64,000 nucleotides of DNA, taken from the human T2T-CHM13v2.0 reference genome, Homo sapiens. The position numbers were made by a program, and so were the translations under genes. Under the pieces are notes generated by a model. That model was given only the letters and a program-made list of their open reading frames with translations, was not told where the DNA came from and did not search any database. This document shows positions 14,691 through 21,515 of this stretch, in pieces. Every line of letters begins with the position of its first letter. Position 1 is the first letter of the stretch. The stretch lies in NCBI RefSeq assembly GCF_009914755.1, contig NC_060929.1, one strand, 5' to 3'.

Positions 14691-15876
14691 CAGAAAACTA
14701 TGAAATACCGATTCAAGAAATTAAAAATGACACAAACAAACAGGAAGACAACCCATACTCATTGATCAGAAGAATTAATATTGTTAAAATCACCATACTG
14801 CCCAAAGCAACCTATAGATTTAATGCAATCCCTCTCAAAATACCAATAACATCCTTCACAATAATAGAATACATAATCCCAAAATTTGTATGGAAACAAA
14901 AAAGGAGGCAGAGTAGCCAAAACAATTCGGAACAAAAAGAACAAAGTTTGAGGCATCCCATATCTGACTTCAAAATATATTACAAGTCTATAGTAACCAA
15001 AACAGCATGATATGTGTATTAAAACAGACAAATAGACCAATAGAACAGAATAGAGAACCCAGAAATAAGTTCTCATATTTACAGCCAACCGATTTTCTAC
15101 GAAAGTGCCAGGAATATACATTGGAAAAAGGACACCTTCTTCAGTAAATGGTAAGGGCATAAATGATATTTATGGGGAGAAGAATGAAACTAGATCCCTA
15201 TCTATCACCACATACAAAAGTGAACTCAAAGTGGATAAAATAAGACCTAGAACTGCAAAAGGACCAGAATGAAACCTACAGGAAATACTTTAGGACATTG
15301 GTCTCGGCAAAGATTTTGTGACTAAGAATTTAAAAGCATAGGCAAAAAGGTAAATTTTAAAAAATTTAATCTGATTAAAAAAATTAATCTGATTAAAAAG
15401 CAGGCAGAGGAGACGAATAAACATTTCTCAAAAGAAGAGTTACAAATGGCCAACAGATACATGAACAAATACTCAACATCACTAATTATCAGGAAAATGC
15501 AAGTCAAAATCACAATGAAATATCTTCCCATACCAGTTAGAGTGGCTATTATTTAAAAGACAAATAATAACAAATGCTGGTGAGGATGTTGAGAAAAGTG
15601 AACTCTTATACACTGCTGGTGGGACTGTACATTAGTACAGCCATTATGAAAAACATTGTAGAAGTTTATGAAAAAAAAAAAAAACCATCCCAAAAGCCTA
15701 AAAATAGAACTACCATTTGATCCAGCAATCCCACTACTGGGTATTATCCAAAGGAAAGGAAATACTTGCATCCTCATGCATATTGCAGCTCTTTTCACAA
15801 TAGCCAATATATGGAATCAACATAAATGCCCATCAACAGAAGAATGGTGTGTGATGGTTAATATTAAATGTCAACT

Positions 15877-15917
15877 TACCACCCTGAATGCACCCAATCT
15901 CCTCTGATCTCAGAAGC
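15877..15917 (+). pseudogene. 5S rRNA fragment (about nt 12-52) at the HERV-L deletion junction
   Basis: TACCACCCTGAATGCACCCAATCTCCTCTGATCTCAGAAGC vs 5S TACCACCCTGAACGCGCCCGATCTCGTCTGATCTCGGAAGC: 36/41 identical, all 5 differences at CpG sites. Confidence 0.92.
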
Positions 15918-16169
15918 CTACTGCATTGTTACTTAATTTATATAAGCAGAAAACTTCAGGTCTAGTGGACCAAAGACTAATTTGATTTACAAAAACAGAG
16001 AATCATGGCCCCTCAATCAATTTCCAGACTTGAACCAGTTTACAGACCCAGAAGCTCTTGAATGAAGGGGAGACCGGGTCCCCTTGAGGAAGGACCCCAC
16101 TACACTACCAACAATTTATGCTGTTAATCTTTCTCCCGTCCTTCCCCAAGGAGATCTCTGGTCTTTTAT

Positions 16170-16490
16170 CAGGGTAACCCTGCATTGGGGAAAGTGAAAT
16201 GATCAGACATTGCAAGGGCTACTGGACACTGGCTCTGAGCTGACATTGATTCCAGGGGACCCAAAACATCATTGTGGTCCTCCAGGTAAAGTAGGGACTT
16301 ATGGAGGTTAGTAATTAAGGGAATTTTAGCTCTGGTCACACTTACAGCGGGTCTAGTGGGTCCCTAGACTCACTTGTGGTCATTTTCCCAGTGCCAGAAT
16401 GCATAATTGGCATAGACATACTTAGCAGCTGGCAGAACCCACATATTGGCTCCCTGACTGGTAGGGTGAGGGCTATTATGGTGGGAAAGC
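16170..16490 (+). pseudogene. pro: HERV-L aspartic protease remnant
   Basis: GLLDTGSELTLIPGDP (DTGS at 16225-16236); PVPECIIGIDILSSW; stops and frameshifts present. Confidence 0.9.
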
Positions 16491-18665
16491 CATTGACTTG
16501 GAAAATGCCAACGAAAAGCGATTTCAAGGCCAGTAAAATACCTTTACTGTCCTATCTCAGGAGTATATCAACTCTCCAGCTTTGTGTCATAATGTTGTTT
16601 GGAGAGAACTTGATCACTTTTCCCTTTCACAAGATATCACACTAGTCCATTACATTGATGACATTATGCTGATTGGATCCAGTGAAAGAGAGGTAGCAAA
16701 TACACTGGACTTACCAGTGAGACATTTGTGTGCCCCAGAATGGGAAATAAATCCGACTACAATTCAGGGAGCTTCTACCTCAGTAATATTTCTAGGGGCT
16801 CAGTGGTGTCAAGATATTCCTTCTAAGGTGAAGGATACGTTTTTGCATTTGACACCTCCTACAACAAAGAAAAAGGCACAATGTCTGGGGGCCTACTTGG
16901 ATTTTGGAGGCAACACATCCCTCATCTGGGTGTGTTACTCTGGCCCATTTATTGAGTGGCCTGAAAGGCTGCCAGTTTTGAGTGGGATCTAAAGCAGGAG
17001 AAGGCTCTGCAACAGGTCCAGGCTGCTGTGCAACCTGCTCTGCCACTGGGCCATATGACCAAGCAGATCCAATGGTGCTTGAGGTGTCAGTGGCAGATAT
17101 GGATGCTGTTTGGAGCCTTTGAAAGGCCCCCATAGGTGAATCACGGCAGAGGCCTCTAGGATTTTGGAGCAAGGCCCTGCTGTCTTCTGCAGATAACTAC
17201 TCTCCTTTGGATAAATAGCTCTTGACCTGTTACTAAGCTTTGGTGGAAACTGAACATTTGACTATGGGTCATCAAGTCACCATGTGACCTGAACTGCCTA
17301 TCATTAATTGGGTGCTTTCTGACCCATCTAGCCATAAGATGGGGCATGCATAGCAGCATCTCATCATCAAATGGAGGTGGTATATACATAATTAGACTCG
17401 AGCAAGTCCTGAGGGCACAAGTAAGTTACATGAGGAAGTGGCTCAAATGTTCATGGTCCCCACTCCTGCCACCATGCCTTCTCTCCCTCAGCCTGCACCA
17501 ATGGCCTCATGGGGAGTTCCCTATGATTAGTTGACAGTGGAAGAGAAAACAAGGACCTGGTTTACAGATAGCACTGCATGATATGCTGGCACTACTTAAA
17601 AGTGGACAGCTGTGGCACTACTGCCCGTTTCTAGGACATCCCTGAACAACAGTGGTGAAGGGAAATCTTCCCAGTGGGCAGAAAATCGAGCAGTGGACCT
17701 CATTGTGCACTTTACTTGGAAGGAGAAATGGCCAGATATGCAATTATATACTGATTCATGGGCTGTAGCCAATGGCTTGGCCAGATGGCCAGGGACTTGG
17801 AAAAAACATGATTGGATAATTGGTGACAAAGAAATTTGGGGAAGAGATATGTGGATGGACCTCTCCAAGTGGTCAAAAACTGTGAAGATATTTGTATCTC
17901 ATGTGAGTGCTCACCAAAGGGTGACCTCAGCAGAGGAGGATTTTAAAAATCAAGTGGATGGGATGACTCATTCTTTGGATACCACTCAGCCTCTTTCCCC
18001 AGCCATCCCTGTCGTTGTCCAATGGGCCCATGAAAAATGTGGCCATGATGGTAGGGAAAGGAGGTTACACATGGGCTCAGCAACATGGACTTTCAGTCAC
18101 GAATGCTGACCTGGCTACATCCACTGCTGAGTGCCCAATTTGCCAGCAGGAGAGACCAACACTAACCCCTCGATATGGCACCATTCCTTGGGGTGATCAG
18201 CTAGCTACTTCATGGCAGGTTGATTATATTGGACCTCTTCCATCATGGAAAGGGCAGTGGTTTGTCCTCACTAGAATAGACACTCTGGATATGGGTTTGC
18301 CTATCCTGCATGCAATACTTCTGCCAAGACTACCATCCGTGGACTCACGGGATGCCTTATCCACCATCATGGTGTTCCACACAACATTGCCTCTGACCAA
18401 GGCACTCACTTAATAGCTAAAGCAGTCTTAGCAGTGGGTTCAAGCTCATGGAATTCACTGATCTTACCAGGTTCCCCATCATCCCGAAGCAGCTGGATTG
18501 ATAGAAGAGTAGAATGGTCTTTTGAAGTCAATTATAATGCCAACTAGGTGACAATACTTTTCAGGGCTGAGGCAAAGTTCTCCAGAGTGCTCTGTTTGCT
18601 CTGAATTATCATCCAACATATGTTACTGTTTCTTCCATAACCAGGATTCATGGGTCCGGGAATCA
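16491..18665 (+). pseudogene. pol: HERV-L pol remnant (RT, RNase H, integrase), frameshifted
   Basis: [12 protein letters not shown] (YIDD 16651-16662); RNase H YTDSWAVANGL and HVSAH; integrase WAHEKCGHDG...CPICQQ and WQVDYIGPLP in ORFs 16582, 17612, 18015. Confidence 0.93.
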
Positions 18666-18669
18666 AGGG

Positions 18670-19104
18670 GTGGAAGTGGAAGTGGCAGCACTCACCATCA
18701 TCCCTAGTAATCCCCTAGCAAAATTTTTGCTTCGTGTTCCCAAGGCATTACATTCTGCTGGCCTGGAGGTCTTAGTTCCAGAGGGAGGAACACTACCACC
18801 AGGAGACACAACAACGATTTCATTAATGTGGAAGTTAAGATTGCCACCTGGACACTTTGGGCTCCTCCTACCATTAAGTCAACAAGCTAATAAGGGAGTT
18901 ACAGTGTCGGCTGTGGTGACTGACCCGGACTATCAAGATGAAATCAGTCTACTGCTCCATAACGGAGGTAAGGAAGGTTATGCATGGAATACAGGAGATC
19001 CATTAGGGAGTCTCTTAGTGTTAGCATGCCCTGTGATTAAGGTCAATGGGAAACTACAACAGCCCAATCCAGACAGGACTACAAATGGCCCAGACACTTC
19101 ATGA
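18670..19104 (+). pseudogene. dut: HERV-L dUTPase reading frame
   Basis: HSAGLEVL...KLRLPPGHFGLLLP...VTDPDYQDEISLLLHN; lies downstream of integrase as is typical of ERV-L. Confidence 0.88.
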
Positions 19105-19560
19105 ATGAAGGTTTGGGTCATTCCACCAGGTAAAAAATCCTGACCTACTGAGGTGCTTGTTGAAGGCAAAGGGAATACAGAATGGATAGTAGAAGAAGTA
19201 TTCATCAGTACCAGCCACGCCCGCGTGACCAGTTGCAGAGAGGAGGACTGTAATTGTCATGAGTATTTCCTCTTTATTTTGTTAAGAACATGTTTGTGCC
19301 TTTATACACTTGTACCAAGAAAATATCTTCATTTTATTTTCTTTTAGCTTTGTGACATAAGACTTATTGGCTTCTTATCAGCATTTAAGTGTTGTTAATT
19401 TTATATAACAGCATTTGGATTGGGGGCTGGTACATTTCCAGTTGTATGAAGGATAGTTGTATTATGTTAGGCACAATTATGATTTTATTATTGTCTTTAT
19501 TTGAAGATTATGTATGATTTCAGAAGATGTATATGGGTTCAAGTTGGCAAGGAATGGACT

Positions 19561-20024
19561 TGTGATGGTTAATACTGAATGTCAACTTGATTGGATTGAA
19601 GGATGCAAAGTATTGTTCCTAGGTGTGTCTGTGAGGTCTGTGAAGGTGTTGCCAAAGGCGATTAACATTTGAGTCAGTGGACTGGGAAAGGGAGACCCAC
19701 CTTTTAATCTGTGTGGGCACAATTTAATCAGCTGCCAGCATCACCAAAATAAAAGCAAGCAGAAGAACGTGGAGTGGAGAGATTAGACTGGCTTAGCTTC
19801 TGAGCCTAACATCTTTCTCCCATGCTGGATGCTTCCTTCCCTTGAACATGGGACTCCAGGTTCTTCAGGTTTGGGACTCGGACTGGCTTCCTTGCACTTT
19901 AGCTTGCAGATGGCCTATTGTGAGGCCTCATTTTGTGATCATGTGAATTAATAATCCTTAATCAACTCCTCTTTATATATACATCTATCTTATTAATTCT
20001 GTCTCTCTAAAGAATCCTAATACA
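19561..20024 (+). mobile_element. MLT2A1 3' LTR
   Basis: TGTGATGGTTAATACTGAATGTCAACTTGATTGGATTGAAGG...CCTAATACA; preceded by the PPT-like AAGGAATGGACT. Confidence 0.93.
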
Positions 20025-21515
20025 AACAGATATAGAAAATGTGATAATATTGTCTCTCTATATACATATACATATAGACAGAGACACACAATGAAATACC
20101 ACTCAGCCAAAAAAACAAACAAACAAATAACAAAAAAAAGAAATCCTGTCATTTGCAACAATATGAATGAGACTCCTGGAGGGCATCATGTTAAGTGAAA
20201 TAAGTCAGACACAGTAAAATAAACAGCACATATTCTCATTCATATGTGAAACTAAAAAAAAAAAATTGAGCTCATGAAAATAGAGAGTGGAATTGTGAAT
20301 CTTAGAGGCTGGGAAGGGAAGGGGGAGCGGAGGATATAGAGTGATTGTTTAACATATACGAAATTACAGCTAGAGAGTGAAAATGAGTTCTGGTGTTTTG
20401 CAACTCTGCAGGATAAATATGGTTAACTATAATTTATCATATATTTTCAAAAAACTAGAAAAGAGAATTTTGAATATTCACAATACAACAATGATAAATA
20501 TTTCAGCTGATGGGTATGCTAGTTTGATTTGTTCATTACACATTGTATACATACATCAAAATATCACTTTGTATCCTATAAATGTGTATAATTATTGCAT
20601 ACCAACTAAAAACAAAAGAAAACATAAAAATTAAAAAATTAAAAACTAAAAAAATATGAATGGAAATTCTCATGCATACAATACACAATGCAGTGAATAG
20701 GCCCTTCTGGAGATATGCAAATCAGCAAAACTGTACACAGTAACCACTGGCATTACCCATTCTAGGTGGAATGTGGGACATTGTTAGCTCATACCTGTAA
20801 CTCCTAATTAGAAATCATTAGAGAAAGACATTCTGCCATGGGAATTGTTGAGCTACAACGGTGAAGCAACATCAGGTCATTGCAAATGATTTAAAAATTC
20901 ACAGTTGTATTATATTGGAATGTGGTCAGGGAACATGAAGCTAGTCAACTTTAACAGTCAAAAAATTTCACAAGAAATCATAGCCAATTCATATTCAGTG
21001 CTAATAACAGGATTGCTTTAAAAATAGCTATTATATTACTAAACAGCACTTTTGCAATGTTTAAGTTTTAAGTATTATTAAAGTGGTTAGTACTAGCAGA
21101 GTAGATATGAATGAATTGTGGCAACTGTAGTTTAACCATAGAAACTACAAGGTAAGCAACAGAGCACATTTTAGAGATTAAATAAATTAAGCAATTAAAT
21201 TGGTTTACTAAGACCCTTGATGTTTTCAGGTAGATAATTATTATGAGAAAAATAAAATGTAATAAGAGAAATAGTATTTAAGTAGTGGACCAGTTTATGT
21301 AGAAAATGAAGGATCAGGAAACAAGAAAGTAACATGATCTTTATGTTTGACTTAGAAAACAAATTACATGAAATAACCAAGATGTCTCGAGCACAAATCA
21401 TTGATGTTTTATCAGTTACTGATGTCAGCTTGGGTATAGCAAGATGGAAATGAAATAAAAAAAATCAGCCACTAAAATAAAGTTCTTCTTGGTATCAATG
21501 TCTTATCTACTTATT

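What the first reader, a model, noticed from the sequence alone, without database searches (positions are those of the whole stretch)
15848..15930. 5S rRNA fragment patches the deletion that removed the HERV-L 5' LTR and gag
Seen: the 5' LTR stops after about 28 nt (...GTCAACTT), is followed by 41 nt matching 5S rRNA nt 12-52 (36/41; all five mismatches at CpGs, four of them methylation-type transitions), then continues into late-gag sequence (CTACTGCATTGTTACTTAATTTATATAAGC). The insert has no poly(A), no TSD and lacks both 5S ends. From recalled consensus, HERV-L reads ...GGAAGCCTACTGC here and 5S reads ...CGGAAGC, so the right junction has 5-6 nt microhomology; the left shares only T. Established: typical 5S pseudogenes are L1-mediated insertions with TSDs. 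Inference: roughly 2 kb of provirus was lost and bridged by a copy of an abundant Pol III RNA, via RNA/cDNA-templated break repair or an RT template switch onto 5S RNA primed at GGAAGC. Complete CpG loss suggests an old event.
Basis: partly seen in the sequence, partly recalled or inferred. Interest (0 to 1): 0.85.

Follow-up and report, generated by a model that had tools for sequence, protein, structure and literature searches.

The report
5S rRNA patch inside truncated HERV-L
A 41-base copy of the middle of 5S ribosomal RNA sits exactly where about 2 kb of an old HERV-L provirus is missing, a one-off fossil of an RNA-copied patch of a known kind rather than a new class of element.

Summary
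Window 15850-15877 is the first 28 nt of the HERV-L 5' LTR. Window 15877-15917 equals nt 12-52 of a real 5S gene from this genome (36/41). All 5 mismatches fall on the 5 CpGs and 0 of 31 non-CpG positions differ (blastn E 1e-8). From 15912/15918 the sequence is HERV-L again, 312 nt upstream of the protease DTG. About 2.05-2.10 kb are missing: the rest of the LTR, the leader and most of gag.

The right junction has 5-6 nt of microhomology (GGAAGC) and the left has 1 nt (T). The chimera occurs once in T2T-CHM13. It differs from ordinary dispersed 5S copies: 29 of 39 start at nt 1 and 20 of 39 end at nt 90, commonly with duplications visible in the printed flanks.

Best reading: a DNA 3' end annealed to GGAAGC of 5S RNA, was extended by a reverse transcriptase to nt 12/13, and was then joined to LTR nt 28. 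I cannot settle where this happened. A chromosomal break repaired after integration (about 0.45) and aberrant reverse transcription before integration (about 0.30) both fit. Both are known kinds. No primate orthologues could be examined. Interest is moderate.

The parts
15690..15847 (+). Upstream part of the old L1 (ORF2 3' region) into which the provirus inserted; only the part examined
   Evidence: 74-81% identical to 39 other L1 copies over query 1-158 of 160. 11 L1 copies read ...GAATGG^ATAAAG... across the site.
15843..15847 (+). Putative upstream copy of a 5-bp target-site duplication (aatgg)
   Evidence: These are the last L1 bases before the insert. They match the 5 extra bases after the 3' LTR at only 3 of 5 positions, so this is a weak call.
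15848..15849 (+). Two extra bases (tg) between the L1 and the LTR start, unexplained; possibly TG slippage
   Evidence: Read directly. Other copies have the duplication directly against TGTGATGG.
15850..15877 (+). HERV-L 5' LTR stub, first 28 nt of U3
   Evidence: Matches 19561-19588 with 2 mismatches and the starts of the LTRs of other copies.
15877..15917 (+). 5S rRNA-derived patch, nt 12-52 in sense orientation. Bases 15878-15911 (5S nt 13-46) can only come from 5S.
   Evidence: 36/41 to the 5S gene of locus L022, with mismatches only at the 5 CpGs. blastn E 1.1e-8. 86-97% identical to 39 dispersed 5S copies.
15912..15917 (+). Right-junction microhomology, now agaagc, originally GGAAGC or AGAAGC; shared by 5S nt 47-52 and HERV-L gag
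   Evidence: 5S reads TCGGAAGCTA. 15 of 19 HERV-L copies read GGAAGCCT and 2 of 19 read AGAAGCCT.
15918..19560 (+). Remaining HERV-L interior: end of gag, protease, partial RT, RNase H, dUTPase; many stop codons
   Evidence: Hits to many HERV-L copies. LLDTGSELTLIPGD at 16219-16260. The open stretch 16537-16989 matches RVT_1, 17600-18106 matches RNase_H and 18571-19101 matches dUTPase.
16487..16488 (+). Second, plain deletion of about 307 nt (protease/RT N-terminal region), with A(G)GCCA microhomology and no filler
   Evidence: Gap in the window row against 8 other copies.
19561..20024 (+). Complete 3' LTR, ending ...taataca
   Evidence: Aligns end to end with the LTRs of other copies.
20025..20029 (+). 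Five extra bases (aacag) between the LTR end and the resumption of the L1; putative decayed downstream copy of the duplication
   Evidence: The L1 resumes at atatag = ATAAAG of other L1 copies. The extra segment is exactly 5 nt long.
20030..20200 (+). Downstream continuation of the same L1; only the part examined
   Evidence: Aligns to the same L1 loci just after the upstream match.

Best explanation
One event removed about 2.05 kb of an integrated HERV-L provirus and sealed the gap with a short DNA copy of 5S ribosomal RNA. The missing stretch runs from LTR nt 29 to the end of gag.

Proposed steps, all inferred. After a chromosomal break and resection, the bottom-strand 3' end on the gag side ended in the complement of GGAAGC. 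It annealed to nt 47-52 of a 5S RNA molecule. A reverse-transcribing polymerase (L1 ORF2p, an ERV RT or Pol theta) copied the RNA from nt 46 down to nt 12/13. It stopped in loop A, just before helix I. The extended end was then joined to the other break end at LTR nt 28 through a single shared T.

This makes it a class-2 templated sequence insertion: an RNA-derived patch at a double-strand break. It is old and has no function; the piece lacks the 5S ends. The core claim, a one-step RNA-copied patch primed at GGAAGC, I put at about 0.8. That it happened after integration I put at 0.45.
For: - Anatomy: LTR stub, then 5S nt 12-52, then late gag, with 5-6 nt and 1 nt of junction homology.
- Missing length: the distance from LTR start to ACTGC is 2,086-2,135 nt in 6 of 10 full copies, against 70 nt here.
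- Polarity: the longer microhomology lies at the 3' side of the RNA segment, where a reverse transcriptase must be primed, and the near-blunt join lies at the 5' side.
- Structure: nt 12 lies in loop A (nt 10-13) directly after the helix I arm (nt 1-9), and nt 52 closes helix III (structure line).
- No poly(A) and no duplication around the patch.
- The L1 flanks are contiguous, so the loss is internal to the provirus.
- The patch lies wholly within the transcribed 5S sequence, and the window holds no other 5S copy to act as a local DNA donor.
- Single copy in the genome.
- Class-2 templated insertions are described with these features: no TSD, no poly(A), microhomology, RNA origin (PMC5110952, passages read).
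- A preprint reports 5S segments in L1 chimeras truncated at position 46, close to the nt 46-52 boundary here (10.1101/2025.02.02.635956, passages).
Against: - Nothing in the sequence dates the patch relative to integration. With 0 of 31 non-CpG changes against a provirus branch of 0.063, P is 0.14, and all 5 CpGs are lost, so the patch may be as old as the provirus.
- The passages I read on templated insertions describe microdeletions, not a 2-kb loss, and inserts of 73-414 bp, not 41 nt.
- The polarity argument rests on one case and would come out this way by chance half the time.
- The 5S origin is not proven to be RNA rather than 5S DNA.
- No orthologous locus could be examined.
Confidence: 0.45

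Rival explanations
1. The patch was made before integration, inside the HERV-L particle.

During minus-strand synthesis the viral RT left the genome in late gag and landed on a co-packaged 5S RNA at GGAAGC. It copied the RNA to nt 12/13 and stalled. A nascent plus strand only 28 nt long (U3 nt 1-28) then transferred prematurely to that minus-strand end. Equivalently, the minus strand landed on plus-strand strong-stop DNA at nt 28. The product had both correct termini and was integrated normally as a dead provirus.
For: - Same junction anatomy and polarity: the 5S is in the sense of the viral plus strand, as minus-strand copying of an RNA requires.
- Reviews state that retroviral template switching yields deletions with insertions (PMC3187697, passages).
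[quoted passage not shown] A 7SL patch was seen in an experimental recombinant, and 5S rRNA is packaged by MLV (PMC4997597, passages).
- The retained 28 nt keep the LTR terminus that integration needs (recalled, not tested).
- The insertion site looks like a normal integration: contiguous L1 with exactly 5 extra bases.
- The age data allow the patch to be as old as the provirus.
- The same provirus has a second deletion with microhomology.
Against: - The landing site is U3, which is absent from the 5' end of the genomic RNA. A simple minus-strand 'deletion with insertion' cannot produce this, so a second, near-homology-free aberrant strand transfer is needed.
- Nonhomologous switching is reported as at least 1000-fold rarer than homologous switching.
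- Packaging of 5S RNA by HERV-L is not known.
- The target duplication is only 3 of 5, with 2 unexplained extra bases.
Confidence: 0.3
2. Two steps. First, an L1-mediated, 5'-truncated 5S retropseudogene (nt 12 to 90 or 121) inserted into the LTR at nt 28. Later, a microhomology-mediated deletion between GGAAGC of the 5S copy and GGAAGC of gag removed the rest of the 5S copy, its downstream duplication, the LTR and most of gag.
For: - Each step is an ordinary kind of event.
- The 6-nt repeat would suit a microhomology deletion, and this provirus has another such deletion.
- The bases left of the junction (ATT/AAATGTCAACTT) could pass for an L1 endonuclease site plus a 12-nt duplication. The endonuclease motif is recalled, and this is a weak argument in AT-rich sequence.
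Against: - Dispersed 5S copies are rarely 5'-truncated. 29 of 39 start at nt 1 and 36 of 39 at nt 4 or earlier; only 3 start at nt 5, 7 or 10, and none at nt 12 or later (two of the 39 are duplicates of each other).
- It needs two independent rare events, with a deletion breakpoint falling inside a roughly 100-nt target.
- No trace of an A-tail or a second duplication copy remains.
Confidence: 0.08
3. The patch was copied from 5S DNA (the chr1 gene array or a pseudogene) by replication-based template switching or by capture of a DNA fragment, with no RNA involved.
For: Microhomology at the junctions also fits DNA template switching. The patch is 86-97% identical to 39 dispersed 5S copies, though parallel CpG decay explains that.
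Against: - The patch lies wholly inside the 121-nt transcribed part of a repeat unit of about 2.2 kb (spacing). This is weakened by ascertainment, since a spacer patch would not have been recognised.
- No 5S copy lies in the 64-kb window. The nearest hit on this chromosome is about 29 Mb away.
- The polarity of the microhomology fits priming on RNA.
Confidence: 0.07

Closest known systems
Class-2 templated sequence insertions: RNA-derived patches at double-strand breaks (Onozawa and Aplan; PMC5110952, passages read)
   Same: The inserted sequence is templated from a distant transcribed locus. There is no target-site duplication and no poly(A). The junctions show microhomology. The insert is an internal fragment of the donor RNA.
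   Different: At 41 nt it is shorter than the 73-414 bp experimental inserts. It comes with a loss of about 2 kb rather than a microdeletion. The donor is a Pol III RNA. The event is old and present in the reference genome. Its timing relative to provirus integration is unknown.
Retroviral 'deletions with insertions' and patch repair through a tertiary host-RNA template during reverse transcription (PMC4997597 and PMC3187697, passages read; Duggal 2007 and Hajjar and Linial 1993 seen only as citations, papers not held)
   Same: A host Pol III RNA fragment bridges two non-adjacent viral sequences with fortuitous microhomology. The orientation fits minus-strand synthesis.
   Different: The upstream landing point is in U3 of the 5' LTR, which requires an aberrant plus-strand transfer. 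The patch is 5S rather than 7SL. The case is a germline-fixed endogenous provirus, not an experimental vector.
L1-mediated 5S retropseudogenes and 5S/L1 chimeric insertions (bioRxiv 10.1101/2025.02.02.635956, passages read; my own survey)
   Same: A reverse-transcribed copy of 5S RNA. The 3' boundary at nt 46-52 is close to the recurrent truncation at position 46 reported for the chimeras. One such chimera was seen here (L068: antisense L1 followed by 5S nt 5-46).
   Different: No duplication, no adjoining L1 3' segment, and the 5' end is missing: it starts at nt 12, whereas 29 of 39 surveyed copies start at nt 1. It sits at a deletion junction inside a provirus.

Membership tests
Class-2 templated sequence insertion (break patch copied from RNA) | Insert templated from a distant, transcribed sequence | tested here: met
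   36/41 to 5S nt 12-52 of the chr1 gene, E 1.1e-8. No 5S copy elsewhere in the window.
Class-2 templated sequence insertion (break patch copied from RNA) | No target-site duplication and no poly(A) around the insert | tested here: met
   Read directly. The two flanks are HERV-L sequences about 2 kb apart in intact copies.
Class-2 templated sequence insertion (break patch copied from RNA) | End-joining marks at the junctions (microhomology, loss of recipient bases) | tested here: met
   5-6 nt and 1 nt of microhomology. About 2.05-2.10 kb lost, far more than a microdeletion.
Class-2 templated sequence insertion (break patch copied from RNA) | Arose at a chromosomal break, that is, after the provirus was integrated | not testable with these tools
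   Needs orthologous loci of other primates; none are held here.
Retroviral deletion-with-insertion (tertiary-template patch during reverse transcription) | Patch orientation and microhomology fit minus-strand synthesis leaving the genome for a host RNA | tested here: met
   The 5S is in the sense of the viral plus strand, and GGAAGC is shared at the gag/5S junction.
Retroviral deletion-with-insertion (tertiary-template patch during reverse transcription) | Return to the viral genomic RNA upstream of the departure point | tested here: not met
   The upstream partner is U3 nt 28 of the 5' LTR. U3 is not at the 5' end of the genomic RNA (PMC3187697), so only an aberrant plus-strand transfer could give this.
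Retroviral deletion-with-insertion (tertiary-template patch during reverse transcription) | Donor RNA is packaged by the virus | not testable with these tools
   5S packaging is reported for MLV (PMC4997597). Nothing is known for HERV-L.
L1-mediated 5S retropseudogene | Flanking target-site duplication; 5S starts at or near nt 1; usual 3' end at nt 90 or at full length | tested here: not met
   No duplication; starts at nt 12 and ends at nt 46-52. In the survey 36 of 39 start at nt 4 or earlier, 20 of 39 end at nt 90 and 5 of 39 at nt 120-121.
5S/L1 chimeric insertion (twin priming) | 5S segment abuts the 3' part of an L1 inserted in the same event | tested here: not met
   Both neighbours are HERV-L. 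The L1 in the flanks is an old copy split by the provirus.
5S rRNA gene (Rfam RF00001) | Reaches the family model's score; full helix I to V architecture | tested here: not met
   cmscan gives no 5S hit even at E up to 10 on 131 nt. nt 1-11 and 53-121 are absent.
HERV-L (ERV-L) provirus | LTRs starting TGTG...; pro-RT-RNase H followed by dUTPase before the 3' LTR; 5-bp duplication | tested here: inconclusive
   LTRs and domain order are met, as is homology to many full copies. The duplication is only 3 of 5 with 2 extra bases. The family name and the MLT2A label are recalled; no repeat library was available.

The most novel reading that the evidence does not exclude
The patch is a germline fossil of reverse transcription gone wrong inside an ERV-L particle. 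The viral RT jumped from gag onto a co-packaged 5S rRNA, stalled at the three-way junction, and a 28-nt nascent plus strand transferred prematurely. The resulting dead provirus had correct ends and was still integrated.

This would be natural, tens-of-millions-of-years-old evidence of two things: that an extinct ERV-L packaged 5S rRNA, and that the tertiary-template 'patch repair' seen with laboratory vectors also shaped endogenous proviruses. Deletion junctions of ERVs could then be mined as a record of what ancient particles packaged.
Probability: 0.3. Interest if true: 0.6.

Novelty: new member of a known kind. Interest (0 to 1): 0.4.

Why it matters
This is a clean natural example of a short DNA copy of a Pol III RNA bridging a kilobase deletion, with both junctions resolved to the base. 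RNA-templated patches at breaks, and host-RNA patches in retroviral recombinants, are known mostly from experiments and from polymorphisms. Old fixed cases inside datable repeats are useful because intact sister copies give the pre-event sequence.

If many ERV deletion junctions carry such patches, their donors (5S, 7SL, tRNA, U6, Y RNA) and their start points would show which reverse transcriptase acted and which RNAs were within its reach. A single locus cannot show this.

The locus itself has no sign of function. No gene lies within 100 kb according to the hub's annotation note, and the 5S piece lacks most of the gene.

Tried and rejected
- **Rfam.** cmscan on 4 kb and on 131 nt found no 5S. 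The fragment is too short for the model, so I used a real 5S gene from the genome instead.
- **Chance similarity.** Rejected: E 1.1e-8, binomial about 4e-10.
- **41-mer is part of normal HERV-L or its LTR.** Rejected: 0 of 19 copies have it upstream of the junction, and 9 of 9 other 5' LTRs continue as LTR after CAACTT.
- **L1-made chimeric retrogene of a HERV-L transcript plus 5S.** Rejected: the 3' LTR runs to its very end with no poly(A), and the 5' end carries U3 bases that a transcript lacks.
- **5S homology reaching nt 1 with a gap** (gtcaac against 5S nt 1-6, 5 of 6; two hits extend that way). Rejected: the same 8 bases match the element's own 3' LTR 8 of 8.
- **Ancient 5S-derived SINE** (family recalled). 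Rejected because all non-CpG positions equal today's 5S gene.
- **Dating the patch against the provirus.** Inconclusive: P(0 of 31) is 0.14.
- **Rows dropped.** L050 was dropped from the distance estimate as misaligned (31% apparent divergence). L049 and L050 were left out of the gap map.
- **Pfam on whole reading frames.** Not accepted because of stop codons; I used open stretches instead. The stretch 18000-18550, where an integrase would be expected, gave no Pfam hit.
- **Papers not held.** Two primary papers on retroviral patches, so I rely on the reviews' wording.
- **Literature searches for this case.** '5S rRNA' + 'HERV-L' gave 2 unrelated papers. 'filler DNA' + '5S rRNA' gave 2 unrelated papers. 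'5S rRNA', 'endogenous retrovirus', 'template switch' and 'provirus' gave no listed title or abstract describing such a patch (listing only).
- **Genome-wide screen for short internal 5S fragments.** Not feasible, because the genome search scores only the best 40 or so candidates.
Full report
**1. What is there**

The window is T2T-CHM13 chr5:85,312,001-85,376,000, and its genome could be searched. Reading 15300-16500 and 19480-20300 shows an old L1 interrupted by a HERV-L-type provirus.

- The 28 bases 15850-15877 recur at 19561-19588 with 2 mismatches; none is expected by chance. The second site is the start of a complete 3' LTR that ends ...taataca at 20024.
- In 9 of 9 other 5' LTRs that I could locate among 10 fetched copies, and in the window's own 3' LTR, the sequence after ...CAACTT continues as LTR. 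In the window it continues as 5S.

**2. The 5S match**

Rfam's 5S model does not report the piece, on 4 kb or on 131 nt. I therefore took a real 5S gene from the chr1 array of the same genome (L022, RF00001 at 114.6 bits).

- Ungapped, window 15877-15917 equals 5S nt 12-52 at 36 of 41 positions.
- The five mismatches (C24T, G27A, G31A, G37C, G47A) fall one on each of the five CpGs of that stretch, and four are transitions.
- None of the 31 non-CpG positions differs.
- blastn of 5S against the whole window gives E 1.1e-8, and no other hit is better than E 2.4. A binomial estimate over all placements is about 4e-10.

**3. The right side**

From 15912/15913 on, the sequence matches many HERV-L copies at 96-98% over the first 45 nt.

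- Of 19 copies, 15 read GGAAGCCT directly before ACTGCATT, 2 read AGAAGCCT, 1 reads GGAAAACT and 1 reads GGAAGGCT. None has 5S-like sequence upstream; they read ...GAAATTGATA there.
- 5S reads ...TCGGAAGCTA. The two parents therefore share GGAAGC, or GAAGC if the parent provirus had the AGAAGC variant. That is 5-6 nt of microhomology at 15912-15917.
- Base 15911 (c) can only be 5S, and base 15918 (c) can only be HERV-L.
- At the left junction only T 15877 is shared (LTR nt 28 and 5S nt 12).
- Bases 15878-15911 (34 nt) are unambiguously 5S.

**4. What is missing**

In 6 of 10 fetched full copies the distance from the LTR start to ACTGC is 2,086-2,135 nt. The other four gave 1,633, 2,468 and 2,790 nt, and one in which no 5' LTR was found. 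In the window the distance is 70 nt. The loss is thus about 2,050-2,099 nt: the LTR from nt 29, the leader and most of gag.

Downstream features:
- The protease motif LLDTGSELTLIPGD lies at 16219-16260, so the junction is 312 nt upstream of the DTG, at the end of gag.
- The open stretch 16537-16989 matches RVT_1, 17600-18106 matches RNase_H and 18571-19101 matches dUTPase. This order is the one I recall for HERV-L.
- The interior is full of stop codons.
- It has a further plain deletion of about 307 nt after 16487 with A(G)GCCA microhomology and no filler, and a 28-nt deletion after 16507.

**5. The insertion site**

Eleven other L1 copies read ...GAATGG^ATAAAG... across the site.

- The window's upstream flank ends gaatgg plus tg.
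- The downstream flank is aacag followed by atatag.... The L1 is therefore contiguous, with exactly five extra bases downstream and two upstream.
- Three of the 10 other HERV-L copies show a perfect 5-bp duplication directly against the LTR ends (GGTGT, TAGAT, TTCCC) and one shows 4 of 5. I did not resolve the rest.
- Here aatgg against aacag is 3 of 5. That is a weak call, but the length is right. The extra tg is unexplained.

The loss is internal to the provirus and did not touch the flank.

**6. Copy number and comparison with ordinary 5S copies**

Searches with 121 nt and 71 nt across the junctions found only the locus itself spanning them. Other hits cover either the HERV-L part or the 5S part. 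Only the best 40 candidates are scored, but a second full-length copy would rank first.

I fetched all 39 non-self hits to the 5S part and aligned the whole 5S gene to each.

- 29 of 39 start at nt 1 and 36 of 39 at nt 4 or earlier; the other three start at nt 5, 7 and 10.
- 20 of 39 end at nt 90, commonly with a duplication visible directly against both ends in the printed flanks (for example L030, L035, L060, L062). 5 end at nt 120-121, and 3 end at nt 46-58.
- Two of the 39 (L065 and L066) are duplicates of each other.
- One short copy (L068, nt 5-46) abuts an antisense L1. This is the chimera type described in a 2025 preprint, which reports 5S segments truncated at positions 46 and 90 (10.1101/2025.02.02.635956, passages).

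The window's piece has no duplication, no L1 partner and no 5' end, so it is not of these kinds.

**7. Age**

- With 9 other copies, the star-tree branch of the window's copy is 0.076 over all sites and 0.063 without CpG-type changes.
- LTR-LTR divergence in 8 sister copies is 10-16%. At neutral rates that I recall, this means some tens of millions of years.
- CpG observed/expected in the provirus is 0.14.
- The patch lost 5 of 5 CpGs and changed 0 of 31 other positions. At the provirus's branch length P(0 of 31) is 0.14.

The patch is old and may or may not be as old as the provirus. This does not separate the hypotheses.

**8. How it most likely arose**

*Shown.* The anatomy, the junction homologies, single copy and unlikeness to L1-made 5S copies.

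*Inferred core, about 0.8.* A DNA 3' end complementary to GGAAGC annealed to 5S RNA nt 47-52 and was extended by a reverse-transcribing polymerase down to nt 12/13. It was then joined, almost without homology, to LTR nt 28.

Supporting points:
- The longer homology is on the side where priming on RNA must occur.
- By the Rfam structure line, nt 1-9 form the 5' arm of helix I, nt 10-13 are loop A, and nt 25-52 are the whole helix III hairpin. Copying therefore began at the base of helix III and stopped at the three-way junction just before helix I.
- The patch lies wholly in the transcribed part.

*Where it happened is open.*

(a) After integration, as repair of a chromosomal break with a 2-kb loss. 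This would be a class-2 templated insertion: no duplication, no poly(A), microhomology, RNA origin (PMC5110952, passages). I put it at 0.45.

(b) Before integration, in the particle. Reviews state that template switching gives deletions with insertions (PMC3187697). They also state that nonhomologous recombination often uses a tertiary host template as a patch with fortuitous microhomology, that a 7SL patch was seen, and that MLV packages 5S rRNA (PMC4997597). The obstacle is that the upstream partner is U3 of the 5' LTR, which the genomic RNA does not have at its 5' end. A premature plus-strand transfer after only 28 nt is needed. I put it at 0.30.

(c) Two steps: a 5'-truncated 5S retropseudogene in the LTR, then a GGAAGC-mediated deletion. 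Each step is ordinary, but a start at nt 12 is rare (0 of 39 start that late) and two rare events must coincide. I put it at 0.08.

(d) A DNA donor. I put it at 0.07.

A deletion that begins in the 5' U3 cannot be inherited through the viral RNA, so the chimera could never have replicated. Single copy was therefore expected under every reading.

**9. Novelty**

Both leading mechanisms are described kinds, so this is a new member of a known kind. My searches found no paper describing a 5S patch in an ERV:
- '5S rRNA' + 'HERV-L': 2 unrelated papers.
- 'filler DNA' + '5S rRNA': 2 unrelated papers.
- A four-term search on 5S, ERV, template switch and provirus: listing only, nothing fitting.

Subscription journals are largely outside that library.

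**10. Limits**

- No primate genomes and no repeat library were available.
- The names HERV-L and MLT2A, the neutral rates, the L1 endonuclease motif and the need for the LTR terminus in integration are recalled, not tested.
- Two primary papers on retroviral patches were not held.

Noticed in passing
window 15843-15849 and 20025-20029: The provirus lacks a clean 5-bp target duplication. aatgg upstream against aacag downstream is 3 of 5, and two extra bases (tg) lie between the L1 and the LTR start. The string aacagat also equals the L1 sequence 13 nt upstream of the site, so a longer duplication with an 8-nt loss cannot be excluded.
   Followed up: partly
window 16487/16488 and 16507/16508: There are two further internal deletions relative to 8 other copies: about 307 nt (protease/RT N-terminal region) with A(G)GCCA microhomology, and 28 nt. 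Neither has filler.
   Followed up: partly
window 15870-15875: LTR nt 21-26 (gtcaac) resembles 5S nt 1-6 at 5 of 6 positions. It lies out of register with the actual junction by 4 nt and is probably chance, but it sits right next to the left junction.
   Followed up: partly
loci L028-L036 and L059-L088 (dispersed 5S copies): 20 of 39 dispersed 5S copies end at nt 90, commonly with target duplications visible directly against both ends and without a poly(A) tail. This suggests a recurrent internal priming point on 5S RNA.
   Followed up: partly
L068 (G000:C13:101624354-101624888): An antisense L1 segment is followed directly by 5S nt 5-46 in sense. This is a 5S/L1 chimera of the type described in the 2025 preprint.
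   Followed up: no
L065 and L066 (G000:C1:148268474-149014 and C1:146613408-948): The same 5S nt 1-90 copy with identical flanks occurs twice on chr1 in opposite orientation, so it lies in a segmental duplication.
   Followed up: no
window 20045-20095: A TA/CA-rich simple stretch (ctctctatatacatatacatatagacagagacacaca) replaces or expands the corresponding part of the L1 just downstream of the provirus.
   Followed up: no
window 18000-18550: The stretch between RNase H and dUTPase, where an integrase would be expected, gave no Pfam hit in the two open stretches tested (17967-18410 and 18275-18544).
   Followed up: no
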